The translations under genes and the position numbers were made by a program. The notes beneath the pieces are model-generated. The model was not told where the DNA came from and searched no databases. It saw only the letters and a program-made list of their open reading frames with translations. Of a DNA stretch of 64,000 nucleotides, positions 25,202 through 60,865 are shown piece after piece. Numbering within the stretch: position 1 is the stretch's first letter; every line of letters begins with the position of its first letter. The stretch comes from Escherichia coli phage AZ21, in sequence record LC788708.1, one strand, 5' to 3'.

Positions 25202-25219
25202 TGTTTCAAGGAATATAAT

Positions 25220-25417
25220 ATGAAAGCACTAGATAATTACTTAAAGGCTAAATATAGTCCTATAGAAGATCAATCTGCTGTAACTTGTGAAATAAGTCGA
25301 AATAATACAGTACGATTAGCTCAAAAAGGCGGAGGAACATCTGCTAATATTATTTGGCTATCCGAAGAACAAGCAAAAGACTTGTACCATAAACTAGACA
25401 AGTTATTTAATAAGTAG
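25220..25417 (+). CDS. hypothetical protein
   Basis: 65 aa, RBS AAGGAATATAATATG. Confidence 0.4.
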   Translation: MKALDNYLKAKYSPIEDQSAVTCEISRNNTVRLAQKGGGTSANIIWLSEEQAKDLYHKLDKLFNK

Positions 25418-46520: not shown

Positions 46521-47153
46521 ATGACACAAGCTGCTATTGACTATAACAAGTTAAAATCAGCACCGGTTCATTTAGATGCTTATATTAAATCTATTGATAG
46601 CGAATCCAAAGAGGGTGTTGTAAAAATCCGTGGATTCGCTAATACAATTAGTAAAGATCGCGCTGGTGATGTAATTCCTGCTTCGGCATGGAAAACATCT
46701 AATGCACTTGCTAACTACATGAAAAACCCGATTATTCTTTTCGGACATGACCATCGTCGTCCAATCGGCAAGTGTATTGATCTTAACCCTACTGAAATGG
46801 GTCTCGAAATCGAATGCGAGATCTATGAAAGTTCTGATCCGGCTATCTTTTCACTAATTAAAAACGGTGTACTGAAAACTTTTAGTATCGGATTCCGCTG
46901 CCTAGATGCAGAGTGGGATGAAGCTACTGATATATTTATTATTAAAGATTTAGAACTATACGAAGTTTCGGTAGTTTCTGTACCTTGTAATCAGGACTCA
47001 ACATTCAACCTCGCTAAGAGTATGAATGGTCATGATTATACTGAATGGCGTAAATCTTTTACTGCAATAAGTTCTAAAGCTGTCCCAGCTCAAGAACGTA
47101 ATCTTTCTGAACTAGAAAAACTTGCGATAGCTTTAGGCTACGTTAAAGAATAA
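46521..47153 (+). CDS. prohead protease (HK97 family)
   Basis: 210 aa; ILFGHD His motif; directly upstream of major capsid gene. Confidence 0.7.
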   Translation: MTQAAIDYNKLKSAPVHLDAYIKSIDSESKEGVVKIRGFANTISKDRAGDVIPASAWKTSNALANYMKNPIILFGHDHRRPIGKCIDLNPTEMGLEIECEIYESSDPAIFSLIKNGVLKTFSIGFRCLDAEWDEATDIFIIKDLELYEVSVVSVPCNQDSTFNLAKSMNGHDYTEWRKSFTAISSKAVPAQERNLSELEKLAIALGYVKE

Positions 47154-47170
47154 CGGAGAATTATTTAAAA

Positions 47171-48547
47171 ATGACTATTGATATTAATAAGCTGAAAGAA
47201 GAACTTGGTCTGGGTGATCTGGCTAAATCTCTGGAAGGTCTGACCGCTGCTCAGAAAGCTGCTGAAGCTGAACGTATGCGTAAAGAGCAGGAAGAAAAAG
47301 AACTGGCTCGTATGAATGATCTGGTTTCTAAAGCAGTTGGCGAAGATCGTCAGAAGCTAGAAGAAGCTCTGGAACTGGTTAAATCCCTGGATGAAAAATC
47401 TAAGAAGAGCGCAGAACTGTTTGCACAGACTGTAGAAAAACAGCAGGAAACTATTGTTGGTCTTCAGGACGAAATCAAATCTCTGCTAGCAGCTCGTGAA
47501 GGTCGTTCCTTCGTCGGTGATAGCGTAGCTAAAGCACTGTATGGTACTCAAGAAAACTTTGAAGACGAAGTGGAGAAACTGGTTCTTCTGTCCTACGTGA
47601 TGGAAAAAGGTGTATTTGATACCGAACATGGCCAGAGACACCTGAAAGCTGTAAACCAGTCCTCTTTAGTAGAAGTTTCTAGTGAAAGCTATGAAACTAT
47701 TTTCTCCCAGCGTATTATTCGTGATCTGCAGAAAGAACTGGTAGTTGGTGCACTGTTCGAAGAATTGCCGATGTCCAGCAAATTGCTGACTATGCTGGTT
47801 GAACCAGAAGCTGGTAAAGCTACTTGGGTAGATGCTAGTGCATATGGTACTGATGCTACTACTGGTGACGAAGTTAAAGGTGCTCTGACTGAAATTCAGT
47901 TCAAAACCTATAAACTGGCTGCTAAGTCCTTCATTACTGATGAAACTGAAGAAGATGCAATCTTCTCCCTGCTACCGTTGCTGCGTAAGCGTCTGATTGA
48001 AGCACACGCTGTTTCTATCGAAGAAGCATTTATGACTGGTGACGGTACTGGTAAGCCTAAGGGTCTGCTGAAACTGGCTGAAGGCGATAAGGCTAAAGTT
48101 ATTACTGAAGCTAAAGCTGATGGTTCTGTTCTGGTAACTGCTAAAACTATCTCTAAACTGCGTCGTAAACTGGGCCGTCATGGTCTGAAACTGAGCAAAC
48201 TGGTACTGATCGTATCTATGGATGCTTATTACGATCTGCTGGAAGATGAAGAATGGCAGGATGTTGCCCAGGTTGGTAACGATGCTGTTAAACTGCAAGG
48301 TCAGGTTGGTCGTATTTACGGTCTGCCGGTTGTAGTTTCTGAGTTCTTCCCGGCTAAAGCTAACTCTGCAGAGTTCGCAGTTATTGTTTATAAAGATAAC
48401 TTCGTAATGCCGCGTCAGCGTGCTGTTACTGTTGAACGTGAGCGCCAAGCTGGTAAACAACGTGATGCGTACTACGTTACTCAGCGTGTTAACCTGCAAC
48501 GTTACTTCGAAAACGGCGTTGTATCCGGTACTTACGCTGCATCTTAA
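47171..48547 (+). CDS. major capsid protein precursor with N-terminal scaffolding domain
   Basis: 458 aa; about 150-aa N-terminal coiled-coil domain; synteny after protease; strong terminator downstream. Confidence 0.8.
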   Translation: MTIDINKLKEELGLGDLAKSLEGLTAAQKAAEAERMRKEQEEKELARMNDLVSKAVGEDRQKLEEALELVKSLDEKSKKSAELFAQTVEKQQETIVGLQDEIKSLLAAREGRSFVGDSVAKALYGTQENFEDEVEKLVLLSYVMEKGVFDTEHGQRHLKAVNQSSLVEVSSESYETIFSQRIIRDLQKELVVGALFEELPMSSKLLTMLVEPEAGKATWVDASAYGTDATTGDEVKGALTEIQFKTYKLAAKSFITDETEEDAIFSLLPLLRKRLIEAHAVSIEEAFMTGDGTGKPKGLLKLAEGDKAKVITEAKADGSVLVTAKTISKLRRKLGRHGLKLSKLVLIVSMDAYYDLLEDEEWQDVAQVGNDAVKLQGQVGRIYGLPVVVSEFFPAKANSAEFAVIVYKDNFVMPRQRAVTVERERQAGKQRDAYYVTQRVNLQRYFENGVVSGTYAAS

Positions 48548-48567
48548 TACAGGCTTTTCAGCCGATA

Positions 48568-48594
48568 AGGAGAGCTTCGGCTCTCCTTTTTTAT
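48568..48594 (+). terminator. rho-independent terminator after major capsid gene
   Basis: AAGGAGAGC-TTCG-GCTCTCCTT followed by TTTTTT. Confidence 0.75.
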
Positions 48595-48606
48595 TGGGAA
48601 AAATAA

Positions 48607-49119
48607 ATGCAAATCATCACAGCCGAAGATTATAGATTATATGGTGGTTTAAAACGACCTGAATTAGAATCTGGTGTAGAAATGATGATTACTGCTGCCA
48701 ATGCGCTGATTACGAGCCTTCTAGGCATGGATGATGCTGATGCGGTAGACCAGTTAATCAATACAAAACCTACACGTAGGAAATATTTTCTGAGCTCACC
48801 ATCTGCTACCTCCGTAACTAAAGTGACGATTAACGATAATGAGATTGACCCAGAGCAGTATAAGCTATACTCTGATGGTATTATCCTTCTCAAATTTAAT
48901 CCTCCAGAAGGTTATATGGATGTAGCATATACACAAGGTGGATTCAATCCAATACCTGAAGATCTCAAACTTGCAGCATGTATGTTAGTAGATCATTGGC
49001 ACAAACAAGATTACCGCCAAGCTAAAACAATTGGTGGTGAAACAGTAACCTTCAATAGCACTAAGTCTGGTATCCCAGAGCATATTCGTACTATTATTGA
49101 AGTGTATAGGAGAGTATAA
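48607..49119 (+). CDS. head-tail connector/head completion protein (putative)
   Basis: 170 aa ORF right after capsid gene terminator. Confidence 0.45.
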   Translation: MQIITAEDYRLYGGLKRPELESGVEMMITAANALITSLLGMDDADAVDQLINTKPTRRKYFLSSPSATSVTKVTINDNEIDPEQYKLYSDGIILLKFNPPEGYMDVAYTQGGFNPIPEDLKLAACMLVDHWHKQDYRQAKTIGGETVTFNSTKSGIPEHIRTIIEVYRRV

Positions 49120-49886
49120 TGTCTCTTTCCGATCTAGCTAAACAAATTATTAAAGAGCAGCTAGATACTGCAGGACGATCTGAAAATAATAAGAATACTG
49201 TTGTGTATTCTGTTGAGACAGGGTTAAAAGATCCTACCAGAGATGGTACTGTTGCTCAAGTATCTTTTAAGTTTTCAAAACCCGTATCACAAGATCTTCT
49301 TGATGTTAGAACAGCCTCTATACTAAAAGCAGTATCCTCTAGTTTAGATCTTTCGGGGGATTTAGGTGCTCTAGAGAACTTAATACAAGCAACCGCGGGT
49401 AAAAAATCCTCTGTAGGTAAAAAACGTTCTACAGGCAGAGTACAGGTAAACTTTGGGGATCCTAGAGACGTAGAGGATGGATACTCAGGTGCAATAACAG
49501 GTGCTTCCGGACGTTTTGTATCAAATAGCAATATGAAGGTTATATTAGAGATAGTTGCTAAAGAGTACTTAATAAAGGATATGAAAAAGACAGGAGCGCC
49601 ATTAAAATTTAGAACTGGCAGGTTTGCAAATTCTCTGAAAATTAAGGATGTTATGCTTAGAGATGCAGAGACTAGTAAAGGTGCTCCTGAATTAAACGTG
49701 ACGTATAATTATATGGTACGTCCATATTCTGTATTTAATCCAGCAGTATCTACATATCGAAGATTATCTCTACGACCTTACCCAGGCGCTAGAAACCCCC
49801 AAAAACTTATTGGTGAGGCTATAGCAAAAGCTGCAAGAGACCTGATTCACTCTAGATATAAAATCAAGGTTAATCAAGGAACCTAA
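49119..49886 (+). CDS. head-tail joining protein (putative)
   Basis: 255 aa, ATGA overlap, structural module synteny. Confidence 0.45.
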   Translation: MSLSDLAKQIIKEQLDTAGRSENNKNTVVYSVETGLKDPTRDGTVAQVSFKFSKPVSQDLLDVRTASILKAVSSSLDLSGDLGALENLIQATAGKKSSVGKKRSTGRVQVNFGDPRDVEDGYSGAITGASGRFVSNSNMKVILEIVAKEYLIKDMKKTGAPLKFRTGRFANSLKIKDVMLRDAETSKGAPELNVTYNYMVRPYSVFNPAVSTYRRLSLRPYPGARNPQKLIGEAIAKAARDLIHSRYKIKVNQGT

Positions 49887-49889
49887 TAA

Positions 49890-50375
49890 ATGGATTATAG
49901 AACAAGTATTGCACAAGCTCTGGTTGACCGTATATCTAAACAGTTGGATGGTTCTCAACCTGACGAATATTTTAATAACCTATATGGAAACGTTTCTCGT
50001 CAAACTTATAAATTTGAGGAAATACGAGAGTTTCCTTATGTGGCAGTTCATATCGGAACTGAAACTGGGCAGTATCTTCCTTCGGGCCAACAGTGGATGT
50101 TTTTAGAACTTCCAATCCTGGTGTACGATAAAGAGAAAACAGACATTCAAGAGCAACTTGAAAAACTCGTAGCGGATATAAAAACCGTTATTGACACAGG
50201 TGGAAATTTAGAATATACTGTTAGTAAACCTAATGGATCGACCTTCCCATGTGAGGCAACTGATATGATCATTACATCAGTTAATACAGATGAGGGTCTA
50301 CTGGCCCCATATGGTTTAGCAGAAATAAATGTAACAGTGAGGTATCAGCCTCCACGTAGGTCACTTCGCAGATAA
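49890..50375 (+). CDS. tail terminator/completion protein (putative)
   Basis: 161 aa, immediately upstream of tail tube gene. Confidence 0.45.
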   Translation: MDYRTSIAQALVDRISKQLDGSQPDEYFNNLYGNVSRQTYKFEEIREFPYVAVHIGTETGQYLPSGQQWMFLELPILVYDKEKTDIQEQLEKLVADIKTVIDTGGNLEYTVSKPNGSTFPCEATDMIITSVNTDEGLLAPYGLAEINVTVRYQPPRRSLRR

Positions 50376-50401
50376 GTTACAGATTAGGAGAAAATAATTA
50401 A

Positions 50402-51796
50402 ATGTCTTTACAACTATTACGTAATACTCGAATCTTCGTGTCTACGGTTAAGACTGGTCATAATAAGACCAACACGCAAGAGATTCTAGTTCAGGATGAT
50501 ATTTCTTGGGGTCAGGACAGTAACTCAACAGATATTACTGTTAATGAAGCTGGTCCGCGTCCAACTCGTGGTTCTAAACGTTTTAACGACTCTTTAAACG
50601 CGGCTGAGTGGAGTTTCTCTACTTACATCCTGCCCTATATCAATAAAGATGATCAGAAGCAAATCGTTCCTGACTATATGTTATGGCATGCACTTTCTAG
50701 TGGTAAAGCTATTAACTTAGAAGGTAATACAGGGGCACACAATAACGAGGCTAACTTCATGGTTAACTTCAAAGATAACTCCTATCATGAGTTAGCAATG
50801 TTACATATTTATATTCTGACTGATAAAGCATGGAGTTATATCGATTCCTGTCAGATTAATCAGGCAGAAGTTAACGTTGATATCGAAGATATTGGCCGTG
50901 TAACTTGGTCCGGTAATGGTAATCAGCTTATTCCTCTGGATGAGCAACCATTTGACCCAGATGAGTTAGGTATTGATGATGAAACTTATATGACTATCCA
51001 GGGTTCTTATATTAAGAACAAACTAACGATCTTGAAGATCAAGGATATGGATACCAATAAGTCTTATGACATACCTATTACTGGTGGTACTTTCACCATT
51101 AATAATAACATCACGTATCTAACCCCGAATATTATGTCCCGTGTAAATATTCCGATCGGTTCATTTACTGGCGCATTTGAACTAACTGGTTCATTAACTG
51201 CTTATCTGAATGATAAATCTCTTGGTTCTATGGAGCTGTATAAAGATCTTATCAAAACTCTGAAGGTAGTTAACCGCTTCGAAATTGCTCTAGTACTTGG
51301 TGGTGAATACGATGAAGAACGTCCTGCGGCTATTTTGGTAGCTAAACAAGCACACGTTAATATTCCTACTATTGAAACTGATGATGTACTTGGTACTTCA
51401 GTAGAGTTTAAAGCTATTCCATCTGATCTGGATGCTGGTGATGAAGGTTACTTAGGCTTCTCTAGTAAATATACCAAAACAACTATTAATAACTTGATTG
51501 TTAATGGTGATGGTGCTACTAATGCTGTAACCGCAATTACTGTTAAATCTGCTGGTGATGTTACTACAGTAAATAACTCGGCTACTCTTCAAATGAGTGT
51601 TGAAATTACTCCTTCTTCCGCAAAGAATAAAGAAGTTACTTGGGCTATCACTGCTGGTGATGCAGCTACTATCAATGCAGCAGGACTATTAACAGCCCAT
51701 GCTAGTAAAACAGGTGCGGTAACTGTTGAAGCTACAGCTAAGGATGGTTCTGGAGTTAAAGGTACTAAACAGATTACTGTAACAGCAGGTGGTTAA
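50402..51796 (+). CDS. major tail tube protein with C-terminal Ig-like (Big_2) domain (pb6-like)
   Basis: 464 aa; C-terminal ITVKSAGDVTTV...VTVEATAKDGSGVKGTKQITVTAGG Ig-like pattern. Confidence 0.75.
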   Translation: MSLQLLRNTRIFVSTVKTGHNKTNTQEILVQDDISWGQDSNSTDITVNEAGPRPTRGSKRFNDSLNAAEWSFSTYILPYINKDDQKQIVPDYMLWHALSSGKAINLEGNTGAHNNEANFMVNFKDNSYHELAMLHIYILTDKAWSYIDSCQINQAEVNVDIEDIGRVTWSGNGNQLIPLDEQPFDPDELGIDDETYMTIQGSYIKNKLTILKIKDMDTNKSYDIPITGGTFTINNNITYLTPNIMSRVNIPIGSFTGAFELTGSLTAYLNDKSLGSMELYKDLIKTLKVVNRFEIALVLGGEYDEERPAAILVAKQAHVNIPTIETDDVLGTSVEFKAIPSDLDAGDEGYLGFSSKYTKTTINNLIVNGDGATNAVTAITVKSAGDVTTVNNSATLQMSVEITPSSAKNKEVTWAITAGDAATINAAGLLTAHASKTGAVTVEATAKDGSGVKGTKQITVTAGG

Positions 51797-51800
51797 TTAA

Positions 51801-52700
51801 ATGTACTACTCTCTAATGAGAGAGTCAAAAGTTATAGTTGAGTATGATGGTAGGGCATTTCATTTTGATGCCCTATCAAACTATGATATACAGACTTCCT
51901 ACGAGGAATTCAAGACTCTTCGTAGGACTGTTCATCGTAGAACTAACTATGCAGACTCTATTATAAATGCTCAAACTCCCTCTTCTATCTCTCTAGCCGT
52001 AAATTTCAGTAATACTCTTACGGAGGCTAACTTCTTTGAATGGTTAGGTTTTGATAGAAAAGGTAATACTTTCTTACTCCCACTATATAGTAGTAATATT
52101 GAACCTATTATGTTCAATATCTATATAGTAAACAAAGATAGTAACTGTGTATATTTTGAAAACTGTTATGTATCTACGGTAGATTTTTCTTTAGATAAGA
52201 ACATACCAATTCTTAATGTTGGTATTGAGTCTGGGAAATTCTCAGAAGTATCTACCTATAGAGAAGCAGCTTCTATTATACAGGGTGAAGTAATGTCTTA
52301 CAGCCCAGTAATAGCTTCTACTAATGGCAGCATCTTACCAGGTCTTATTTCTGCCTCTTTATCTTTCCAACAGCAGTGTTCCTGGAGAGAGGATAAGAGT
52401 GTTTTTGATATAAATAAAATTTATAATAATAAAAGAGCCTATGTAACTGAAATGAATGCTTCGGCAACCATTTCTCTATACTACTTAAAACGTTTTGCAG
52501 GAGATATGGTTTATAATATAGAACCGGAGATAGATATACCTTTAACAATAAGAAATAATAATATTTCTATAGATTTTCCTTCAGCACGTATTACAAAACG
52601 CCTAGATTTCTCAGATGTGTATAGAGTTGAGTGGGATATTATACCTACTGCTTCTTCAGACCCAGTGAGAATAGATTTCTTTGGAGAAATTAAAAAATGA
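51801..52700 (+). CDS. tail protein (p140-like)
   Basis: 299 aa, between tube gene and chaperone genes. Confidence 0.45.
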   Translation: MYYSLMRESKVIVEYDGRAFHFDALSNYDIQTSYEEFKTLRRTVHRRTNYADSIINAQTPSSISLAVNFSNTLTEANFFEWLGFDRKGNTFLLPLYSSNIEPIMFNIYIVNKDSNCVYFENCYVSTVDFSLDKNIPILNVGIESGKFSEVSTYREAASIIQGEVMSYSPVIASTNGSILPGLISASLSFQQQCSWREDKSVFDINKIYNNKRAYVTEMNASATISLYYLKRFAGDMVYNIEPEIDIPLTIRNNNISIDFPSARITKRLDFSDVYRVEWDIIPTASSDPVRIDFFGEIKK

Positions 52701-53101
52701 TTAATTTAAAAGATATTACTCTTGATACTCGTACTATTACTCTTTCCTACCCAGGTATGCCGAACTTTAAACTAGAACTTAACTATATGTCTCGTGCTAC
52801 CTCTAAACGTGTTATTTCTTCTGCTAAACGCGATGAATGGGTTAACGGTACTTTGGTTCAGGTACAGGATGATGATAAGTTCATTGAAGCCTTTGTTGAC
52901 GCAGCTATTAAAGGTTGGACTGGTTTGACTGTAGGTGACGTTGAAAAACTAATGCTGATTGAAACAGATGCTGATCCTGCTACTGAAGTTCCTTTTAGCC
53001 GCGATAATGCTGTAATGCTTATGCAGAACTCTGCTGCGTTTGATTCTTGGATCAACCAGACAGTGTTCCACTTAGACACTTTTCGTAGCCCAAAAGCGTA
53101 A
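52697..53101 (+). CDS. tail assembly chaperone (putative)
   Basis: 134 aa upstream of tape measure, ATGA overlap. Confidence 0.4.
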   Translation: MINLKDITLDTRTITLSYPGMPNFKLELNYMSRATSKRVISSAKRDEWVNGTLVQVQDDDKFIEAFVDAAIKGWTGLTVGDVEKLMLIETDADPATEVPFSRDNAVMLMQNSAAFDSWINQTVFHLDTFRSPKA

Positions 53102-53162
53102 AGAACTTCTGGATGCTGTTGCTGATTTTGCAGATAAATGTATTAAGAGCTCAGCATCTAAA

Positions 53163-53531
53163 ATGACCAAACAACAATATTTAATACTTTGCGAGTCAAT
53201 GGGTATAGAGCCTGATCCTAAGGCTATGCCCGTTGAACTTGAGGATTTTCCACCTATTGTATCTATTAGTATGAATATTTATAACAGTCTGATTGACTGT
53301 TTCATACCGGGTGACTTTCCTATTTTTATAGGTAAGGATAAAGCTGCATTAGGTGTTTTATTTGATATTTATGGGATTACTGATCCTATAGAAAAAGAAT
53401 TTGTTCTACACATTATCAATATATTTGATGCTAAAGCTGTAGACGCTGCACGTAAACATGCTGAGAAGCATAAACCGCAAAACGGGAGGATCCCTAACGT
53501 TAAGCCACATGCTAGATCTCGTGCACGGTAA
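53163..53531 (+). CDS. tail assembly chaperone (putative)
   Basis: 122 aa directly upstream of tape measure gene. Confidence 0.4.
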   Translation: MTKQQYLILCESMGIEPDPKAMPVELEDFPPIVSISMNIYNSLIDCFIPGDFPIFIGKDKAALGVLFDIYGITDPIEKEFVLHIINIFDAKAVDAARKHAEKHKPQNGRIPNVKPHARSRAR

Positions 53532-53565
53532 AAGTTTCCTCCAATGGGCGTTCCACGATGAGGCT

Positions 53566-53597
53566 TGGCTCTGGGTGATTTGCCCAGAGCCTTTTTT
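53566..53597 (+). terminator. rho-independent terminator before tape measure gene
   Basis: GGCTCTGGG-loop-CCCAGAGCC followed by TTTTTT. Confidence 0.75.
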
Positions 53598-53614
53598 ATT
53601 GGGAAAAATAAAAC

Positions 53615-56600
53615 ATGACTGATAAGCTAATACGAGAATTACTAATAGACGTTAAACAGAAGGGGGCAACTCGTACTGCAAAGTCTATTGAAAACGTATC
53701 TGATGCGTTGGAAAATGCTGCTGCTGCTTCCGAACTGACAAATGAGCAGTTAGGTAAAATGCCCAGAACTCTTTATTCCATTGAGAGGGCAGCAGACAGA
53801 GCAGCGAAAAGTCTTACTAAAATGCAAGCTAGTAGGGGTATGGCTGGTATCACTAAATCCATTGATGGTATTGGTGATAAGCTAGATTACCTGGCTATCC
53901 AACTTATTGAAGTAACAGATAAACTAGAAATTGGATTTGATGGAGTTTCTAGATCTGTTAAAACAATGGGTAATGATGTTGCAGCTGCAACAGAAAAAGT
54001 CCAGGATAGATTATATGATACTAATAGAGCATTAGGTGGTACAGCTAGAGGTTTTAACGACACTGCTGGTGCCGCTGGTAGAGCTTCTAGAGCTATTGGT
54101 AATACTTCTGGTTCAGCACGTGGTGCAACTCGTGATTTTGCGGCAATGGCTAAGATCGGTGGTAGTCTACCTATTATGTACGCAGCTCTTGCTTCCAACA
54201 TCTTCGTTTTGCAATCAGCATTTGAACAACTTAAACTAGGTGATCAGCTAAATCGTCTAGAAAAATTTGGTGTTATAGTAGGTACTCAGACAGGTACTCC
54301 TGTTCAGACCCTTGCTAGATCACTACAAGAAGCTGCTGGATATGCTATTTCTTTTGAGGAAGCAATGAGACAGGCATCTTCAGCATCTGCTTATGGATTT
54401 GATGCTGAACAGCTTAATAAATTTGGTTTAGTAGCTCGTCGTGCGGCTGCTGTTCTTGGCGTTGATATGACTGATGCACTTAACCGTGTAATTAAGGGCG
54501 TATCTAAACAAGAAATCGAACTTCTGGATGAACTTGGTGTCACCATCCGTCTTAATGACGCATACGCTGATTATGTTAAACAGTTAAATGCTGCAAACAC
54601 AGGTATAACATATAATGTTAATAGTCTTACCACTTTCCAGAAGCAACAAGCATACGCTAATGCGGTAATTGCTGAATCTACTAAGCGTTTCGGCTACCTA
54701 GATGAAGTACTACGTGCAACTCCATGGGAGCAGTTTGCTGCTAATGCAGATGCTGCACTAAGAAAAATACAACAAGCTGCTGCTAAGTATTTAGGGCCAG
54801 TAATTGATGCTATCAACACAGTATTTTATACGTCTCAGGCTTCTATATCTGCTGAGGCAGCTAGGGCTCAAGAAAAAACTAATAGACAGATAGACCCTAC
54901 CAACGTTGGTGCTGTTGCTTTAAGTTTAGCTGCTTCTGAAGAAGGCTATAATAAAGCTCTAGATATGTATAAGGAATCTCTTGATAAGCGTAATAAGCTA
55001 AAATCTGAGTTTGATAAACGAATGGAACAAGCAGATTTCTATACAAAATTAGCTATACGTCAAGTTGGTGAAGGTATTCCTATTGGTATTGCAGCAGCAG
55101 GTGCTTCGGAGGCCAATAAGCAATTTGTAGCAGAAACTGCAGCTATGGGTCTACAAGTAACTAGACTTGGTAAGGAAGTAGAGGATTCTACAGAGAATCT
55201 CAATGCTTGGAAATCAGCGTATCAAGCTGCTGGGGCTGCTGCTGCAAATGCTAGTCCAGAGTTTCAGAAGCAAATTAATCTCCAGAGAGATACTACTGAT
55301 CCTGATGCTGTATACGATTTTAACTCTACTGTATTAAAAGGACTAACTGAGCAGCAGAAAGCGTACAATCAGACTAAGAAAACTGCTAGTGACTTAGCTA
55401 ATGACTTTCAAAATATAGCTAGTAGCACAGATACTGCTGCTAAAACCAGTGCAACTTTTGAAGAGGTAATTAAAAACATATCGTCTCTATCCGCAGGAAC
55501 TGGTAAGAGTGCTGATGATTATGTTAAAAGCCTCAACTTAGGGTTTAACACTCTGTCTGAAATGAAAACTGCGTCTCAGGCCTTATCTGAGTACGTTAAA
55601 CTAACGGGTAATGAGACTAAGAACCAGTTAGCAGTTCAACAGAAGATAGCGGATGTATATAACCAAACTAAGGATAAAGAAAAAGCACAGGAAGCTGGTA
55701 GACGTTTAGAGTTGCAACAGTTAGAAGAGCAAGAAACTGCTTTACACCGTGTTCTTCAAACAAACCAGGGAAATAAAGCTGTTGAAAAAGAAATTGAAAA
55801 AATTCAGCTGGAGAAACTTAAACTTACTAATCAGGGTATGGAGGCTCAGAAGAAGGTTAAGGATTACACAGATAAAATTCTGGGTGTAGATCGTGAGATA
55901 GCCCTCTTAAATAACCGTACTATGACAGATACTCAGTATCGTCTAGCACAGTTAAATCTTGAATTGACCGTTGAAAAAGAGAAGTACGAATGGTACACAA
56001 AACAAGCTGATAAACAGAAAGAGGCAGAACAGTCTAGACGTGCTCAAGCTCAAATTGAACGTGAAATCTGGAAATTCCGCCAAGATCAGATTGCTTCAAT
56101 GGCTGCTGGTAGAGAGGAAGAACAGCAAAGACAATTTACTGCTAAACCATTAATGGGAAATGCGGAGCGCCTACAGGAACAGCTAAAATTATATGAAGAC
56201 TTAAAGCAGAAAACATTAGGTAATGCTGCGGCACAAGCGGAATATAATAAAAAGATAGCTGAAACTAGGGCACAACTAGCAGGTTTAAGGGCACAGAGAA
56301 ATGCGGAGATGCAAGCTTCTGTTGGATCTTCTTTAGGTGCTGTGTACACCCCTACAACTGGACTATCTGGAGAAGATAAAGATTTTGCTGATATGGGAAA
56401 TAGGATGGCTTCTTATGACCAGGCAATATCTAAACTATCCGAGCTAAACTCTGAAGCAACCGCTGTAGCTCAAAGCATGGGTAACCTAACCAATGCTATG
56501 ATTCAGTTCTCTATGGGGTCTTTAGACACGACTTCCACGATCGCAGTAGGTATGCAAGCTGTATCCTCTATGATTCAATATAGTACTAGTCAACAGGTTA

Positions 56601-57295
56601 GTGCAATTGATCAGGCTATCGCAGCAGAGCAGAAACGTGATGGTAAATCAGAAGCATCTAAAGCTAAGTTGAAGAAGTTGGAAGCTGAAAAGCTGAAGAT
56701 TCAACAAGACGCAGCTAAGAAGCAGATTATCATCCAAACTGCGGTAGCAGTAATGCAAGCGGCAACAGCTGTACCGTACCCGTTCTCTATTCCTTTGATG
56801 GTGGCGGCAGGTTTGGCAGGTGCCTTAGCTCTTGCTCAAGCATCTTCTGCATCTGGCATGTCTTCTATTGCAGATTCTGGGGCGGATACAACTAGTTATT
56901 TAACCTTAGGAGAACGTCAGAAGAATATAGATGTGTCCATGTCTGCTAATGCTGGTGAATTATCTTATATTCGTGGCGATAAAGGCATAGGTGGTGCTAA
57001 CTCTTTCGTTCCCCGTGCTGAGGGTGGTAATATGTACCCTGGGGTTAGCTATCAAATGGGTGAGCATGGTACAGAAGTAGTTACCCCTATGGTTCCTATG
57101 AAAGCTACACCTAATGATGAGCTAAAAATCTCATCTAACTCAACTTCAGGAAGACCTATCATCTTGAATATTAGTGCTATGGATGCTGCAAGTTTTAGAG
57201 AGTTTGCTTCTAGTAATAGTAGTGCTCTAAGAGACGCAGTAGAATTAGCTCTGAATGAGAACGGTGCTAGTCTGAAAACATTAGGAAATTCTTAA
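53615..57295 (+). CDS. tail tape measure protein (pb2-like)
   Basis: 1226 aa; Ala/Gln/Lys-rich coiled coils, hydrophobic segment IIIQTAVAVMQAATAVPYPFSIPLMVAAGLAGALALA near C-terminus. Confidence 0.85.
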   Translation: MTDKLIRELLIDVKQKGATRTAKSIENVSDALENAAAASELTNEQLGKMPRTLYSIERAADRAAKSLTKMQASRGMAGITKSIDGIGDKLDYLAIQLIEVTDKLEIGFDGVSRSVKTMGNDVAAATEKVQDRLYDTNRALGGTARGFNDTAGAAGRASRAIGNTSGSARGATRDFAAMAKIGGSLPIMYAALASNIFVLQSAFEQLKLGDQLNRLEKFGVIVGTQTGTPVQTLARSLQEAAGYAISFEEAMRQASSASAYGFDAEQLNKFGLVARRAAAVLGVDMTDALNRVIKGVSKQEIELLDELGVTIRLNDAYADYVKQLNAANTGITYNVNSLTTFQKQQAYANAVIAESTKRFGYLDEVLRATPWEQFAANADAALRKIQQAAAKYLGPVIDAINTVFYTSQASISAEAARAQEKTNRQIDPTNVGAVALSLAASEEGYNKALDMYKESLDKRNKLKSEFDKRMEQADFYTKLAIRQVGEGIPIGIAAAGASEANKQFVAETAAMGLQVTRLGKEVEDSTENLNAWKSAYQAAGAAAANASPEFQKQINLQRDTTDPDAVYDFNSTVLKGLTEQQKAYNQTKKTASDLANDFQNIASSTDTAAKTSATFEEVIKNISSLSAGTGKSADDYVKSLNLGFNTLSEMKTASQALSEYVKLTGNETKNQLAVQQKIADVYNQTKDKEKAQEAGRRLELQQLEEQETALHRVLQTNQGNKAVEKEIEKIQLEKLKLTNQGMEAQKKVKDYTDKILGVDREIALLNNRTMTDTQYRLAQLNLELTVEKEKYEWYTKQADKQKEAEQSRRAQAQIEREIWKFRQDQIASMAAGREEEQQRQFTAKPLMGNAERLQEQLKLYEDLKQKTLGNAAAQAEYNKKIAETRAQLAGLRAQRNAEMQASVGSSLGAVYTPTTGLSGEDKDFADMGNRMASYDQAISKLSELNSEATAVAQSMGNLTNAMIQFSMGSLDTTSTIAVGMQAVSSMIQYSTSQQVSAIDQAIAAEQKRDGKSEASKAKLKKLEAEKLKIQQDAAKKQIIIQTAVAVMQAATAVPYPFSIPLMVAAGLAGALALAQASSASGMSSIADSGADTTSYLTLGERQKNIDVSMSANAGELSYIRGDKGIGGANSFVPRAEGGNMYPGVSYQMGEHGTEVVTPMVPMKATPNDELKISSNSTSGRPIILNISAMDAASFREFASSNSSALRDAVELALNENGASLKTLGNS

Positions 57296-57302
57296 AACTG
57301 GA

Positions 57303-57326
57303 GGAGGACTTTGAGTCCTCCTTTTC
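57303..57326 (+). terminator. rho-independent terminator after tape measure gene
   Basis: GGAGGACT-TTG-AGTCCTCC followed by TTTTC. Confidence 0.7.
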
Positions 57327-57348
57327 TTTATGGAAAAATAAAAATTTC

Positions 57349-57377
57349 TTGATAAAATTTTCTAATACTATTATAAT
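57349..57377 (+). promoter_or_regulatory. sigma70-like promoter between tape measure and distal tail protein genes
   Basis: TTGATA-17-TATAAT right after a hairpin terminator. Confidence 0.45.
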
Positions 57378-57404
57378 ATTGTTATTAAAGAGGAGAAATT
57401 AACT

Positions 57405-58019
57405 ATGAGATTACCAGACCCATACACGAATCCAGAACTTTCAGGCTTAGGATTCGAAAGTGTTAACCTGATTGATAATGACCCAGTAATTCGTGATGAG
57501 TTACCAAATGGTAAAGTTAACGAAGTTAAGGTATCTGCTCAATACTGGGGTATAAATATTTCTTATCCAGAATTATTTCCAGATGAATATAGTGTTCTAG
57601 ATGCTTTTATTCTAGAATACAAAAGGACTGGTGGTTATATAGATGTTATATTACCCCAATACGAAGCTTTCAGAGTTAGAGGTAATACTAGTCTAGTAAA
57701 TATACCTGCTGGACAGAAGGGTTCTAATATAACTATGGATACAAAAGGACTTCTTACAGGTACTCCAAAACCTGGGGATCTATTTAAGCTGTCTAGCCAC
57801 CCAAAAGTATATAAAATAACATCATTTAACAAATCAGGTAATACATGGTCTATAAACTTATACCCTGATTTATTTATAACTACTACTGGAGCGGATAAGC
57901 CAGTATTCAATGGAATACTATTTAGAACAAAACTCATGAATGGTGATGCTTTCGGATCTACATTAAATAATAACGGAACATATTCCGGCATCTCATTAAA
58001 TTTACGGGAAAGTTTATGA
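57405..58019 (+). CDS. distal tail protein (pb9-like)
   Basis: 204 aa, first gene after tape measure. Confidence 0.65.
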   Translation: MRLPDPYTNPELSGLGFESVNLIDNDPVIRDELPNGKVNEVKVSAQYWGINISYPELFPDEYSVLDAFILEYKRTGGYIDVILPQYEAFRVRGNTSLVNIPAGQKGSNITMDTKGLLTGTPKPGDLFKLSSHPKVYKITSFNKSGNTWSINLYPDLFITTTGADKPVFNGILFRTKLMNGDAFGSTLNNNGTYSGISLNLRESL

Positions 58020-60865
58020 AGAAAATACTAGATAGTGCTAGAAACTACTTAAAAAATAATAGCAGAATAAAAACTGCTAGTCTAATTTCCCTAGAATTAC
58101 CCGGCTCTACTGGTACTAGTACTGCTTTTATTTACTTAACTGACTATTTTAGAGATGTACTATATAATGGTATTTTGTACCAGGCCGGTAAAGTTAAGTC
58201 TATTAGCACACATAAACAAAATAGAGATTTATCTATTGGCAGCCTATCTTTTACTATTACAGGTACAGCACAGGATGAAGTACTGAAATTAGTGCAGAAT
58301 GGTGTATCCTTTTTAGATAGACTAGTATCAATCCACCAAGCAATTATTACAGAGGATGGTTCTATTTTACCTGTAGACCCAGACACAAATGGGCCTTTAT
58401 TATACTTTAGAGGGAGAATTACTGGTGGAGGTATTAAGGACAATATTAGTACTTCTGGGGTTGGAACCTCTACAATTACTTGGAATTGTTCTAACCAATT
58501 CTATGATTTTGATAGGGTTAACGGTAGATTTACTGATGATGCTTCTCATAGAGGGCTTGAGGTTGTAGCAGGACAATTAGTTCCATCTAACGGGGCTAAA
58601 AGACTTGAGTACCAGGAAGATTATGGGTTCTTTCATGCCAATAAAAGTATCTCTATTCTAGCAAAATATCAGGTACAGGAAGAAAGATACAAGCTAAAGT
58701 CTAAGAAAAAACTATTTGGCCTATCTAGAAGCTATAGTCTTAAAAAGTACTATGAGACTGTTACTAAAGAAGTAGATATAGATTTTAACCTTGCTGCTAA
58801 GTATATACCAGTAGTTTATGGTGTACAGAAAATACCGGGAATACCTATTTTTGCGGATACGGAATTACACAATCCTAATATAGTTTATGTAGTATATGCT
58901 TTTGCTGAAGGAGAGATAGACGGTTTTCTTGACTTTTCCTTTGGTGATAATCCCATGATTTGTATGGATTCTAATGATAGCTCTGCTAGAACCTGCTTCG
59001 GTGTTAAAAAAGTAGCAGGAGACACCATGCAAAGAATAGCATCAGGAATATCTTCTAGTAGTCCTTCTGTGCACGGTCAGGAATACAAGTATAATGATGG
59101 TAATGGTGATATAAGGATTTGGACCTATCATGGAAAAGCTGATCAAACGGCTTCTGAAGTATTAGTAAATATAGCGAAGGAACGTGGGTTCTATCTCCAA
59201 AATATGAACGGTAATGGGCCTGAATACTGGGATGCTAGATATAAACTATTAGATACTGCATACGCGATAGTACGCTTTACTATTAATGAAAATAGAACTG
59301 AGATTCCAGAAGTTAGTGCTGAGATTCAGGGTAAGAAGATAAAAATCTATCATTCTGATGGTAGAGTAACTGCTAATAGCACTAGTTTAAATGGTATCTG
59401 GCAAACACTTGACTACTTAACTTCAGATAGGTATGGTGCAAACATTGGTATTGATCAGTTCCCTCTCCAACAATTGGTACAAGAAGCTGCTATCTTAGAT
59501 ATTATAGATGAATCTTACCAAGTATCCTGGCAGCCATACTGGAGATATGTTGGGTGGACTGATCCATTAGCAGAAAATAGACAAATAGTACAAATGAATA
59601 CTATTCTAGATACATCTGAATCAGTATTTAAAAATGTGCAAGGTTTACTAGAATCCTACGGCGGGGCTATTAACAACTTATCTGGTCAATATAGGATTAC
59701 TGTAGAAAAATATTCTAATACTCCATTAGAAATTAATTTTCTGGATACTTATGGTGATTTAGAGCTATCAGATACTACTGGTAGAAATAAATTCAACTCA
59801 GTTCAAGCATCCATCGTAGACCCAGCTCTTAGCTGGAAAACTAACTCTATTACCTTTTACAACTCTAAATATAAAGAGCAAGATAAAAATTTAGACAAAA
59901 AATTACAATTATCTTTTGCAAATATAACTAACTACTATACTGCCAGAAGTTTTGCAGACAGAGAACTTAAGAAATCTAGGTATTCTAGAACCCTCTCATT
60001 TTCTTTACCATATCAATTCATTGGTATTGAGCCTAACGATGCTATTACATTTACATACGACCGTTACGGATGGGATAAGAAGTACTTTTTAGTAGATGAA
60101 GTCGAAAACTCTAGGGAAGGAAAGATAAATGTTACTCTGCAGGAATATGGGGAAGATGTATTTATCAACTCTGATCAGGTAGATAATAGTGGTAATGATA
60201 TACCAGATATTAGTAACAACGTTCTCTCTCCTAGAGATTTTAAATATACTCCTACACCCGGTGGTTTAGTTGGTTCTATAGGAAAAAATGGTGAGTTATC
60301 TTGGCTTCCAAGCTTAACTAATAACGTAGTTTATTACTCTATCGTGCATTCCGGTCATGCTGAGCCTTATATTGTGCAGCAACTAGAAACAAATCCTAAT
60401 GAACGCATGATCCAAGAGATAATTGGAGAGCCAGCAGGTTTAGCAATATTTGAAATAAGGGCTGTGGATATAAACGGTAGAAGAAGTTCTCCAGTAACAT
60501 TATCTATAGAACTTAACTCTGCTAAAAACCTAAGCGTAGTATCTAATTTTAGGGTAACTAATACGGCTTCTGGGGATATAACTGAGTTTGTAGGCCCAGA
60601 TGTAAAACTAGCTTGGGATAGGATACCAGAAGAAGATATAATAGAAAGTATATTCTATACTCTAGAGATCTATGATTCTCAGAATAGAATGCTAAGAAGT
60701 GTACATATTGAAAATCAGTATACTTATGACTATTTATTAATATATAATAAGGCAGATTTTGCTCTCCATAACAGTGGTGCTCTAGGGATCAATAGAAAAC
60801 TATATTTTCGTATTAGAGCAGAAGGAGATGATGGAGAACAGTCTGTGGAGTGGGCATCCATTTAA
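58016..60865 (+). CDS. baseplate hub protein (pb3-like)
   Basis: 949 aa, second gene after tape measure, ATGA overlap. Confidence 0.7.
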   Translation: MKKILDSARNYLKNNSRIKTASLISLELPGSTGTSTAFIYLTDYFRDVLYNGILYQAGKVKSISTHKQNRDLSIGSLSFTITGTAQDEVLKLVQNGVSFLDRLVSIHQAIITEDGSILPVDPDTNGPLLYFRGRITGGGIKDNISTSGVGTSTITWNCSNQFYDFDRVNGRFTDDASHRGLEVVAGQLVPSNGAKRLEYQEDYGFFHANKSISILAKYQVQEERYKLKSKKKLFGLSRSYSLKKYYETVTKEVDIDFNLAAKYIPVVYGVQKIPGIPIFADTELHNPNIVYVVYAFAEGEIDGFLDFSFGDNPMICMDSNDSSARTCFGVKKVAGDTMQRIASGISSSSPSVHGQEYKYNDGNGDIRIWTYHGKADQTASEVLVNIAKERGFYLQNMNGNGPEYWDARYKLLDTAYAIVRFTINENRTEIPEVSAEIQGKKIKIYHSDGRVTANSTSLNGIWQTLDYLTSDRYGANIGIDQFPLQQLVQEAAILDIIDESYQVSWQPYWRYVGWTDPLAENRQIVQMNTILDTSESVFKNVQGLLESYGGAINNLSGQYRITVEKYSNTPLEINFLDTYGDLELSDTTGRNKFNSVQASIVDPALSWKTNSITFYNSKYKEQDKNLDKKLQLSFANITNYYTARSFADRELKKSRYSRTLSFSLPYQFIGIEPNDAITFTYDRYGWDKKYFLVDEVENSREGKINVTLQEYGEDVFINSDQVDNSGNDIPDISNNVLSPRDFKYTPTPGGLVGSIGKNGELSWLPSLTNNVVYYSIVHSGHAEPYIVQQLETNPNERMIQEIIGEPAGLAIFEIRAVDINGRRSSPVTLSIELNSAKNLSVVSNFRVTNTASGDITEFVGPDVKLAWDRIPEEDIIESIFYTLEIYDSQNRMLRSVHIENQYTYDYLLIYNKADFALHNSGALGINRKLYFRIRAEGDDGEQSVEWASI

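What the first reader, a model, noticed from the sequence alone, without database searches (positions are those of the whole stretch)
48568..57345. Recurrent terminator + ATTGGGAAAAATAAA module in the late region
After the capsid gene (48583-48606) and before the tape measure gene (53591-53612), a strong hairpin terminator is followed by the identical TTTTTTATTGGGAAAAATAAA and then the next start codon. A related TTTATGGAAAAATAAAAATTTCTTGATA follows the tape measure gene. This could be a late-promoter element, an RNA-processing site, or a translation enhancer setting structural protein stoichiometry.
Basis: seen in the sequence. Interest (0 to 1): 0.5.

Follow-up and report, generated by a model that had tools for sequence, protein, structure and literature searches.

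The report
Terminator-plus-ribosome-site junctions in T5-like phage
The repeated sequence is real, but it is the U-rich tail of a transcription terminator running straight into the weak ribosome-binding site of the next gene, an ordinary and already annotated way for a phage to make little of the proteins it needs in few copies.

Summary
The window is a T5-like phage, 100% identical to E. coli phage AZ23. CCTTTTTTATTGGGAAAAATAAA occurs exactly twice (48585-48607, 53590-53612), each time right after a strong hairpin and right before a start codon. The third site shares the exact 11-mer GGAAAAATAAA (3 found, 0.15 expected).

It is not one dedicated element. At sites 1 and 2 it is terminator U-tract + weak Shine-Dalgarno (GGGA) + A-rich spacer + ATG. 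Across Demerecviridae the same two junctions always read hairpin, T-run, SD, ATG, with 16-23 nt from hairpin to ATG in all but one of 28 junctions. GGAG, GGAGG or GAGG stands where this phage has GGGA.

No promoter candidate lies between either terminator and the gene behind it. The head-completion and tape-measure genes must therefore be expressed by read-through. That fits attenuators between high-copy and low-copy structural genes, as at T7 Tphi/gene 11.

At site 3 the similar sequence is the AT-rich block upstream of a conserved sigma-70 promoter (TTGATA-17-TATAAT).

A public Tequintavirus record already annotates terminator + RBS (GGG) at both junctions. Low novelty.

One thing stays unexplained: a family-wide conserved non-coding 30-nt CU-rich element just upstream of the second terminator.

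The parts
47171..48547 (+). Major capsid protein gene (pb8 homologue). High-copy product and last gene of the head transcription unit.
   Evidence: ORF list. Annotated as major head protein in relatives.
48552..48563 (+). Small 4-bp hairpin GGCU-uuuc-AGCC in the capsid-gene 3' UTR.
   Evidence: Folded. The stem is kept through changes on both sides in PSTCR5 (GGCA/UGCC) and Klebsiella phages (GGC/GCC).
48567..48588 (+). Terminator T1 hairpin: 9 bp with a cUUCGg tetraloop.
   Evidence: Terminator scan. dG -14.6 kcal/mol, z -3.9. The stem GGAGAGC-UUCG-GCUCUCC is identical or nearly so in enterobacterial Demerecviridae genera, and different but equivalent hairpins stand there in Vibrio phages.
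48587..48595 (+). U-tract of T1 (TTTTTTATT). It overlaps the last two stem pairs.
   Evidence: A T-run follows the hairpin in all 16 lineages compared.
48596..48606 (+). Ribosome-binding site of the head-completion gene: weak SD GGGA (48596-48599) plus A-rich spacer AAAATAA.
   Evidence: Duplex with the anti-SD is -4.2 kcal/mol, against -6.4 to -9.1 for the capsid, tail-tube and distal-tail genes. Relatives have GGAG, GGAGG, GAGG or AAGGAG here. Annotated as RBS in NC_134264.
48607..49119 (+). Head completion protein gene. Low-copy product with no promoter of its own.
   Evidence: Pfam PF24163 HCP, E 3.7e-79. No promoter hit of at least 10/12 between 48588 and 50191.
50191..50219 (+). Intragenic sigma-70 promoter TTGACA-17-TATACT inside the tail-terminator gene, about 180 nt upstream of the tail-tube gene. 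It restores transcription after T1.
   Evidence: 11/12 match. Found at the same offset in 12 of 15 lineages scanned. In the 12 of 14 lineages aligned that carry it, the codon positions forming the hexamers are fixed even though the residue after the conserved Asp varies (T/S/M/N/R/D), while Tyr is always TAT and Thr always ACT.
53535..53563 (+). Conserved non-coding CU-rich element (TTTCCTCCAATGGGCGTTCCACGATGAGG) between the chaperone stop codon and T2. Function unknown.
   Evidence: Conserved from E. coli to Vibrio phages. 1-nt indels between relatives exclude coding. One copy per genome, and only in this family. No Rfam match. No consensus structure.
53567..53591 (+). Terminator T2 hairpin: 10-11 bp.
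   Evidence: dG -20.3 kcal/mol, z -6.0. The consensus fold keeps it, with 4 pairs showing double-sided changes.
53592..53614 (+). U-tract (53592-53600), weak SD GGGA (53601-53604) and A-rich spacer of the tape-measure gene.
   Evidence: Annotated as terminator + RBS in NC_134264. The spacer varies among close relatives (AAAACATG, AAAATATG, AAATTATG, AAATG).
53615..57295 (+). Tape measure protein gene (pb2 homologue). Low-copy product, reachable only by read-through of T2.
   Evidence: No promoter candidate between T2 and the ATG.
57300..57324 (+). Terminator T3 hairpin after the tape-measure gene.
   Evidence: dG -16.7 kcal/mol for the region. A hairpin + T-run stands at this position in all genera compared.
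57325..57348 (+). T-rich tail of T3, then the A/T-rich block GGAAAAATAAAAATTTC. The block lies at about -55 to -38 of the following promoter, which is UP-element position.
   Evidence: T5-type promoters are reported to carry an AT-rich AAAAATT block at -43 (PMC3326045). Other genera have different but equally A/T-rich sequence here.
57349..57377 (+). Sigma-70 promoter TTGATA-17-TATAAT for the distal tail protein operon.
   Evidence: 11/12 match. A -35/-10 pair stands at this position in Klebsiella, Providencia, Pectobacterium, Proteus and Vibrio phages.
57390..57407 (+). Strong SD GAGGAG and ATG of the distal tail protein gene.
   Evidence: Anti-SD duplex -9.1 kcal/mol. Pfam pb9 domains.

Best explanation
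Sites 1 and 2 are each a Rho-independent terminator whose U-tract (UUUUUUAUU) runs without a gap into the ribosome-binding site of the next gene. That site is a weak Shine-Dalgarno GGGA, a 7-10 nt A-rich spacer and the AUG. Most host RNA polymerases stop there. This ends the abundant capsid mRNA at T1 and the tail-tube/chaperone mRNA at T2, each with a protective 3' hairpin.

A minority of polymerases read through. Those transcripts are the only source of mRNA for the low-copy genes behind the terminators: the head completion, tail completion and tail terminator proteins after T1, and the tape-measure protein after T2. On them a weak SD in an A/U-rich context gives modest translation. A conserved promoter inside the tail-terminator gene raises transcription again for the high-copy tail-tube gene.

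The 23-nt identity of the two junctions reflects the same three constraints packed into the shortest possible space: U-tract, SD and A-rich spacer. Copying between the two sites may add to it.

Site 3 is a terminator followed by a sigma-70 promoter. There the similar A-rich sequence is the promoter's upstream AT-rich block.

Shown here: the anatomy, its conservation, and the absence of intervening promoters. Inferred: partial termination, the effect on stoichiometry, and any role of the U/A-rich context (for example through protein S1) in translation.
For: 1. Hairpins followed by T-runs are the three top-ranked terminator-like sites in the 20-kb scan. They are stable: -14.6, -20.3 and -16.7 kcal/mol, z -3.4 to -6.0.

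2. In 16 lineages at site 1 and 12 at site 2, down to 40% capsid identity, the layout is always hairpin, T-run, purine-rich SD, ATG. The hairpin-to-ATG distance is 16-23 nt with one exception of 28. GGAG, GGAGG, GAGG or AAGGAG stands where this phage has GGGA.

3. The T2 stem changes by double-sided substitutions.

4. The SD duplex is only -4.2 kcal/mol at both genes. It is -6.6 for the capsid gene, -7.3 for the tail tube and -9.1 for the distal tail protein.

5. Only 18-23 nt lie between hairpin and ATG, and no promoter hit of at least 10/12 lies between T1 and 50191 or between T2 and T3. The essential tape-measure gene must therefore be read through T2.

6. The intragenic promoter at 50191 is conserved at synonymous sites.

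7. The site 3 promoter is conserved across the family. An AT-rich -43 block is described for T5-type promoters (PMC3326045).

8. Among 26-28 distinct close relatives the junctions are nearly invariant while flanking third-codon positions vary.

9. NC_134264 (phage Lindwurm) annotates terminator + RBS (GGG) at both junctions.

10. T7 has the same layout: capsid gene, Tphi, 18 nt, gene 11 ATG. Its native terminator is described as inefficient, 62% (abstract of PMC9157156).

11. In T5 itself a 250-aa ORF lies between the T2 U-tract and the pb2 ATG, so the two halves work apart.
Against: - No transcript-end or expression data for T5-like phages were found in the searchable literature. Termination efficiency and read-through are therefore inferred.
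- Conservation is stronger than a generic terminator + RBS needs. The 49 nt of T1 + RBS are 98% identical in Providencia phage PSTCR5. They were the only megablast-detectable stretch between the 6-kb query and that record, although the two capsid proteins are only about 52-55% identical.
- The exact 11-mer GGAAAAATAAA also follows T3, where it cannot be an RBS. Part of the shared sequence may therefore serve termination, or a common factor.
- The weak SD is lineage-specific. Vibrio-phage relatives have strong SDs at the same junctions.
Confidence: 0.78

Rival explanations
1. The 21-23 nt sequence is a specific operator. A phage or host protein, or an RNA, binds hairpin + AUUGGGAAAAAUAAA on the mRNA or DNA and co-regulates the head-completion and tape-measure genes, by translational repression or regulated antitermination. 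This would resemble the hairpin-plus-RBS operators of T4 gp43 or regA.
For: - Exact identity of 23 nt at two sites.
- Near-invariance among 26-28 relatives.
- 98% identity of 49 nt in a different genus.
- The 11-mer also follows T3.
- The tails of sites 1 and 2 resemble each other more within a genome than between genomes (permutation p 0.001-0.01).
Against: - In other genera the same positions hold ordinary, different SD sequences, so no common recognition sequence exists across the family.
- The spacer length at site 2 varies among close relatives.
- T5 lacks the motif at site 2.
- The within-genome similarity test is confounded by phylogeny.
- No Rfam family matches.
Confidence: 0.08
2. The shared post-terminator sequence mainly serves termination rather than translation. 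The GG after AU(U) makes the polymerase pause at the end of the U-tract (pyrimidine at -1, G at +1). The easily melted A-rich DNA downstream favours release. This would explain why all three late terminators share it.
For: - GGAAAAATAAA lies 9-11 nt after all three late hairpins, including T3 where no gene starts.
- A GG or purine block follows the T-run in every lineage.
- Effects of terminator-distal sequence on efficiency are established for the T3/T7 early terminators (recalled from the literature, not tested here).
Against: - Site 3 of other genera lacks GG and the 11-mer.
- Strong terminators elsewhere in the window have other downstream sequences.
- At sites 1 and 2 the purine block is always at SD distance from the ATG.
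- This explanation can coexist with the RBS role rather than replace it.
Confidence: 0.1
3. The motif is an endonucleolytic processing site. It would separate the capsid or tail-tube mRNA, left with a 3' hairpin, from the downstream message.
For: It is an A/U-rich single-stranded stretch next to a stable hairpin, the usual context of RNase E sites (general knowledge). The region after each hairpin is predicted partly unpaired, with mean unpaired probability 0.47-0.63.
Against: - No RN|WUU-type consensus in the motif (by reading).
- Stems of 9-11 bp are too short for RNase III.
- Cleavage inside the motif would remove the RBS of the downstream gene.
- The sequence is not conserved in other genera except as U-tract + SD.
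Confidence: 0.03
4. The motif at sites 1 and 2 is a late-promoter element, either T4-like TATAAATA or an UP element for a promoter inside the coding region.
For: AATAAATG resembles TATAAATA (6/8, by reading). At site 3 the same 11-mer lies upstream of a real sigma-70 promoter.
Against: - No -35/-10 pair of at least 9/12 was found downstream of sites 1 or 2 within 50 nt.
- A transcript starting there would lack the start codon or its RBS.
- T5 late promoters are reported to be sigma-70 type (PMC7472727).
- Relatives carry plain SDs at that position.
Confidence: 0.01

Closest known systems
Phage T7 terminator Tphi at the gene 10 (capsid) / gene 11 junction
   Same: The major capsid gene is followed by a stable hairpin + U-run, and the RBS and ATG of the next, lower-copy structural gene follow within about 20 nt (T7: 18 nt from the annotated termination point to the ATG). 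The downstream genes depend on read-through. The native T7 terminator is described as adapted to be inefficient (PMC9157156 abstract).
   Different: Tphi acts on T7 RNA polymerase, whereas T5-like phages use host sigma-70 polymerase throughout (PMC7472727). T7 gene 11 has a strong SD (AAGGAGG), while here the SD is weak (GGGA). Here the junction occurs twice with an identical tail.
Internal operon attenuators of E. coli: the terminator between rpsU and dnaG, and the rplL-rpoB attenuator (textbook knowledge, not tested here)
   Same: A partial intrinsic terminator inside a transcription unit lowers expression of the distal gene. For dnaG this is combined with a poor ribosome-binding site.
   Different: Those are cellular operons with longer spacers. 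They lack the tight fusion of U-tract and SD seen here and have no repeated sequence.
T5-type sigma-70 promoters with an AT-rich -43 block (UP-element-like)
   Same: Site 3 has TTGATA-17-TATAAT preceded by AAAAATAAAAATTTC. This matches the reported T5-like consensus of an AAAAATT block at -43 (PMC3326045).
   Different: This applies to site 3 only. Sites 1 and 2 have no promoter hexamers.
A/U-rich, protein-S1-dependent translation enhancers upstream of weak SD sequences (literature knowledge, not tested here)
   Same: A U-run immediately 5' of a weak SD, and an A-rich spacer, are the contexts reported to favour 30S binding through S1.
   Different: Here the U-run is first of all a terminator tail. 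No experiment links it to translation.

Membership tests
Rho-independent (intrinsic) terminator | G+C-rich stem-loop of about 5-12 bp with a short loop | tested here: met
   T1 has 9 bp with a UUCG loop, T2 10-11 bp, T3 8-11 bp. dG -14.6, -20.3 and -16.7 kcal/mol, z -3.4 to -6.0.
Rho-independent (intrinsic) terminator | Run of U directly 3' of the stem, on the coding strand and downstream of a gene | tested here: met
   TTTTTTATT follows T1 and T2, and TTTTCTTTAT follows T3. All are on the + strand, 20-36 nt after stop codons.
Rho-independent (intrinsic) terminator | Structure, rather than sequence, kept in relatives | tested here: met
   Different hairpins stand at the same place in 16 and 12 lineages. 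Four T2 pairs show double-sided changes.
Rho-independent (intrinsic) terminator | Transcripts actually end there, and with what efficiency | not testable with these tools
   No 3'-end data for T5-like phages in the searchable literature.
Shine-Dalgarno ribosome-binding site | Complementarity to the 16S 3' end, 5-10 nt upstream of the start codon of a real gene | tested here: met
   GGGA pairs at -4.2 kcal/mol, 6 and 9 nt from the ATGs of the head-completion (Pfam E 3.7e-79) and tape-measure genes. This is weak compared with neighbouring genes.
Shine-Dalgarno ribosome-binding site | Orthologous position holds an SD in relatives | tested here: met
   GGAG, GGAGG, GAGG, AAGGAG and GGGG stand at the same offset in other genera. 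Annotated as RBS in NC_134264.
Sigma-70 promoter with upstream AT-rich (UP-like) block (site 3 only) | -35 and -10 hexamers with 16-18 bp spacing, kept in relatives, with A/T-rich sequence at about -40 to -60 | tested here: met
   TTGATA-17-TATAAT scores 11/12. A hexamer pair stands at this position in the genera read, and scores at least 10/12 in most of them. GGAAAAATAAAAATTTC lies directly upstream.
Sigma-70 promoter at sites 1 and 2 | A -35/-10 pair placed so that the transcript includes the downstream RBS | tested here: not met
   No hit of at least 9/12 between hairpin and ATG or just downstream. Only 18-23 nt are available.
T4-type late promoter | TATAAATA at -10 | tested here: not met
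   The best match is 6/8 (AATAAATG), overlapping the start codon (by reading). T5 late promoters are reported to be sigma-70 type.
Described RNA family (riboswitch, leader, operator) | Match to an Rfam covariance model | tested here: not met
   No match with E up to 1 in 47000-58500 on either strand.
RNase E processing site | Single-stranded A/U-rich site with the RN|WUU consensus | tested here: not met
   The stretch is A/U-rich and partly unpaired, but no RN|WUU fits within the motif (by reading). Cleavage itself is not testable here.
SD-presenting hairpin (U-tract paired with the A-rich spacer) | Pairing stronger than composition alone gives | tested here: inconclusive
   Weak helices of 0 to -4.4 kcal/mol. 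Against spacer permutations, p = 0.06 at site 1 and 0.15 at site 2.

The most novel reading that the evidence does not exclude
The second junction may be more than terminator + RBS. A 30-nt non-coding CU-rich element (53535-53563, TTTCCTCC...GGGCGTTCCACGAG) is conserved from E. coli to Vibrio phages. It contains two anti-SD-like blocks.

In the fold of a 120-nt read-through transcript (MFE and pairing probabilities), UUCC-A-CGAUGAGG pairs with UUUUAUUG-GGAA and encloses T2. That buries the tape-measure SD.

The element could be a cis-acting gate that limits or times tape-measure translation relative to its chaperones. It could instead be the conserved body of a 3'-UTR-derived small RNA ending at T2. 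Alternatively, the 11-mer shared by all three late terminators could be the site of a factor that tunes read-through.
Probability: 0.1. Interest if true: 0.5.

Novelty: already known. Interest (0 to 1): 0.15.

Why it matters
As it stands this is ordinary gene punctuation, not a new regulatory element. Its use is practical.

It gives a coherent transcription map of the late region of T5-like phages:
- Head unit, ended by T1.
- Read-through genes (head completion, tail completion, tail terminator).
- Intragenic promoter, then tail tube and chaperones, ended by T2.
- Tape-measure gene by read-through, ended by T3.
- Promoter, then the tail tip genes.

This map matches the known copy numbers of the virion proteins.

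It also tells people who engineer these phages that the 20 nt after each hairpin carry both the terminator tail and the next gene's RBS, so the two cannot be edited independently.

If the conserved element upstream of T2 proved to gate tape-measure translation, that would be a modest new example of RNA-level coupling between a tail chaperone and its client.

Tried and rejected
- **SD-presenting hairpin.** The U-tract (UUUAUU) can pair with the spacer (AAUAAA), leaving the SD in the loop, and several genera show mirrored substitutions. The helices are weak, and against spacer permutations the excess is not significant (p 0.06 and 0.15).

- **Long-range helix between the element upstream of T2 and the U-tract/SD.** It is predicted with high probability in one context. 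Total stability does not exceed shuffled upstream elements in 11 lineages (z between -0.7 and +1.2). RNAalifold keeps only T2 and a weak U/A helix.

- **Concerted evolution of sites 1 and 2.** Within-genome similarity exceeds cross-genome similarity (p 0.001-0.01), but shared ancestry within clades can produce this. I treat it as suggestive only.

- **A mobile or widespread motif.**
  - The exact 19-mer was found in viral contigs almost only at the two orthologous T5-like positions.
  - The 9 other viral hits and more than 120 bacterial hits are mostly AT-rich chance matches, some behind unrelated terminators.
  - One marine siphophage contig has the identical 27 nt before its tape-measure gene, but it has no DNA match in the phage collection and only a distant (at most 32.5% identical) tape-measure relative. 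I treat it as coincidence or convergence.

- **The CU-rich element as a trans-acting seed.** Complementary sites in the window are at chance level (26 found, 25.5 expected). TTTCCTCC itself is not enriched (4 found, 1.86 expected).

- **Pattern search for the element elsewhere.** All hits outside Demerecviridae were chance matches without a terminator.

- **Structure-blind alignment of site 1 across the family.** It gave no consensus fold. I replaced it with per-sequence folding.

- **Literature.**
  - No 5'/3'-end maps of T5 late transcripts were found.
  - Brunel et al. 1983 on late-region regulatory elements is cited in PMC7472727 but is not held.
  - The morphogenesis-gene paper looked up by DOI from memory (10.1128/JVI.02262-13) is not held.
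  - The promoter alignment supplement of PMC7472727 held no sequences.

- **Metagenome search with tape-measure N-termini.** It failed because conservation was too low. The capsid-based scan added few new lineages.


Full report
**Identity of the window.** The region is the late (structural) gene block of a T5-like phage. It is 100% identical over 6 kb to E. coli phage AZ23 and 84-96% identical to many Tequintavirus and Epseptimavirus genomes. On the + strand the genes run in this order:
- major capsid protein, 47171-48547
- head completion protein, 48607-49119
- tail completion protein p143, 49119-49886
- tail-tube terminator, 49890-50375
- tail tube protein, 50402-51796
- a 299-aa tail protein
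- two chaperone ORFs
- tape-measure protein, 53615-57295
- distal tail protein pb9, 57405-58019

**Check of the observation.** The description is accurate.
- CCTTTTTTATTGGGAAAAATAAA occurs exactly twice, at 48585-48607 and 53590-53612. None is expected in shuffles.
- Each copy begins at the foot of a strong hairpin (T1 48567-48588, T2 53567-53591). Each ends at, or 3 nt before, a start codon.
- The third site is a weaker match to the 15-mer, with 3 mismatches. At that stringency the window gives 12 hits against 7.1 expected.
- The third site does share the exact 11-mer GGAAAAATAAA. That 11-mer occurs three times in the window against 0.15 expected, always 9-11 nt after one of the three top-ranked late-region hairpins.
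- An independent repeat search groups the three sites as one family.

**Anatomy of sites 1 and 2.**
- Each hairpin is stable: -14.6 and -20.3 kcal/mol, z -3.9 and -6.0. Each is followed by UUUUUUAUU, so both meet the sequence definition of an intrinsic terminator.
- Next comes GGGA, then an A-rich spacer of 7 or 10 nt, then ATG.
- GGGA pairs with the 16S 3' end at only -4.2 kcal/mol. The capsid, tail-tube and distal-tail genes score -6.6, -7.3 and -9.1.
- So the 'motif' is terminator tail + weak Shine-Dalgarno + spacer.

**Comparative evidence.** I collected the orthologous junctions from Klebsiella, Providencia, Pectobacterium, Proteus and Vibrio phages and from uncultured relatives, down to 40% capsid identity.
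- At both junctions every lineage has hairpin, T-run, purine block, ATG.
- The hairpin-to-ATG distance is 16-23 nt in 27 of 28 cases.
- Where this phage has GGGA, others have GGAG, GGAGG, GAGG, AAGGAG or GGGG. That identifies the block as the SD.
- The hairpins differ in sequence between distant lineages while staying equally stable. T2 shows double-sided changes at four pairs.
- Among 26-28 distinct close relatives the junctions are almost invariant, while third-codon positions in the flanks vary.
- A public record, phage Lindwurm NC_134264, already annotates 'terminator' and 'ribosome_binding_site' (the GGG) at both junctions and a terminator at the third.

**Site 3.** Here the hairpin and T-rich tail are followed by GGAAAAATAAAAATTTC and then TTGATA-17-TATAAT, an 11/12 match.
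- A hairpin followed by a -35/-10 pair stands at this position in every genus examined, but the A/T-rich sequence between them differs.
- T5-like promoters are reported to carry an AT-rich AAAAATT block at -43 (PMC3326045).
- At site 3 the similar sequence therefore belongs to a promoter, not to an RBS.

**How it most likely works.**
- There is no room for a promoter in the 18-23 nt between T1 or T2 and the next ATG.
- No candidate of at least 10/12 lies between T1 and 50191, or between T2 and T3.
- The head completion, tail completion, tail terminator and tape-measure genes can therefore only be transcribed by polymerases that read through T1 or T2. The terminators must be partial. This step is inferred, not shown.
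- These are the proteins needed in few copies, while the genes just upstream encode the capsid and tail-tube subunits needed in hundreds. The copy numbers are literature knowledge, not tested here.
- The picture is completed by a promoter, TTGACA-17-TATACT at 50191-50219, inside the tail-terminator gene and about 180 nt before the tail-tube gene. It sits at the same offset in 12 of 15 lineages scanned.
- In the 12 of 14 lineages aligned that carry it, its hexamers are held by fixed synonymous positions. Asp is always GAC, Tyr always TAT and Thr always ACT. The first base of the following codon is A in 11 of 12, whichever amino acid it encodes.
- The late region thus reads: head unit | T1 | low-copy genes by read-through | internal promoter | tail tube and chaperones | T2 | tape measure by read-through | T3 + promoter | tail tip genes.

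**A natural experiment.** In T5 itself, T2 and TTTTTTATT are intact. A 250-aa ORF follows, with a CapR-homology domain and a treble-clef zinc finger. The pb2 ATG abuts its stop codon (...CAGGAAAACATTAGATG). The terminator tail and the RBS therefore work when separated, which argues against one indivisible element.

**Rivals.**
- *A shared operator for a binding factor.* This is suggested by the unusual conservation. 49 nt of T1 + RBS are 98% identical in Providencia phage PSTCR5 and were the only megablast-detectable stretch between the 6-kb query and that record. The tails of the two sites are also more alike within genomes than between them (p 0.001-0.01). Against it: that test is confounded by phylogeny, other genera have no common sequence beyond U-tract + SD, the spacer length varies among close relatives, and T5 lacks the motif at site 2.
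- *A termination-related role for GG + A-rich DNA.* This would explain the 11-mer at T3 and can coexist with the RBS role. It is not supported outside the T5-like and Klebsiella lineages.
- *A processing site.* No support. There is no RNase E consensus by reading, the stems are too short for RNase III, and cleavage would destroy the RBS.
- *A promoter at sites 1 and 2.* Excluded by geometry.
- *A known RNA family.* No Rfam model matches.

**Comparison with known systems.** The closest analogue is the T7 gene 10 / Tphi / gene 11 junction. I read it directly: capsid gene, hairpin, TTTTTTG, CTGAAAGGAGGAACTAT, ATG. Its terminator is described as naturally inefficient (PMC9157156 abstract).
- Here the polymerase is the host sigma-70 enzyme (PMC7472727).
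- Here the SD is weak.
- Here the junction is used twice with the same tail.

Internal attenuators of E. coli operons (rpsU-dnaG, rplL-rpoB) work the same way. That is textbook knowledge.

**What remains unexplained.** Between the chaperone stop codon and T2 lies a 30-nt CU-rich sequence, 53535-53563.
- It is conserved from E. coli to Vibrio phages.
- It is non-coding, because 1-nt indels occur even between close relatives.
- It is present once per genome and only in this family.
- It has no Rfam match and no consensus structure.
- In a 120-nt read-through transcript it is predicted to pair with the U-tract and SD of the tape-measure gene. This is no more stable than shuffled controls.
- Complementary targets in the window are at chance level.
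- This is the only part of the locus that might hide something new.

**Verdict.** The feature is an ordinary, deeply conserved terminator/RBS junction (twice) and a terminator/promoter junction (once), already annotated as such in a public record. Interest is low.

Noticed in passing
window 50191-50219: A sigma-70 promoter (TTGACA-17-TATACT) is embedded in the tail-terminator protein gene, about 180 nt upstream of the tail-tube gene. It is conserved across Demerecviridae, with synonymous codon positions fixed to keep the hexamers.
   Followed up: yes
window 53535-53563: A non-coding CU-rich element (TTTCCTCCAATGGGCGTTCCACGATGAGG) lies between the chaperone stop codon and terminator T2. It is conserved from E. 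coli to Vibrio phages and occurs once per genome. It has no Rfam match and no conserved structure, and its function is unknown.
   Followed up: partly
L025 15020-15772 (phage T5, orthologous to window 53601-53614): In T5 itself a 250-aa ORF (CapR-homology domain + treble-clef zinc finger, probably a mobile or selfish gene) is inserted exactly between the T2 U-tract and the tape-measure ATG. Its stop codon abuts that ATG.
   Followed up: partly
L106 9485-9560 (minus strand); same sequence in L141: An unrelated 42.6-kb marine siphophage contig has a hairpin followed by CTTTTTTATTGGGAAAAATAAATGAC. These 27 nt are identical to site 2 of Epseptimavirus-type relatives, and they stand directly before its own tape-measure gene (PHROG E 9e-104). 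No other similarity was found, so this is probably coincidence or convergence.
   Followed up: partly
window 48552-48563: A second, small hairpin (GGCU-uuuc-AGCC) lies between the capsid stop codon and T1. It is kept by compensatory changes in Providencia and Klebsiella phages and is absent in Proteus phage Stubb.
   Followed up: partly
L001 2996-3050 (Providencia phage PSTCR5): The 49 nt of T1 + RBS are 98% identical to the window. They were the only megablast-detectable stretch between the 6-kb query and this genus, so the junction is more conserved than the genes around it.
   Followed up: yes
window 52697-53101 and 53163-53531: The two tail-chaperone ORFs lie in different frames (the second is +1 relative to the first) and are separated by 61 nt. 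Neither has a Pfam match. Whether a frameshift product links them, as in lambda G/GT, was not examined.
   Followed up: no
window 63515-64000: There are arrays of imperfect 21-nt-period direct repeats (7-residue repeats rich in S/E/T/N/A/K) at the start of a gene that runs off the window. It is probably a fibre protein.
   Followed up: no
window 17545-17600, 20552-20610 and 25173-25225: Early-region terminators show the same two layouts. At 17545 and 20552 a terminator is followed by a promoter-like -35 hexamer. At 25173 a terminator is followed within 25 nt by AAGGAA and an ATG.
   Followed up: partly
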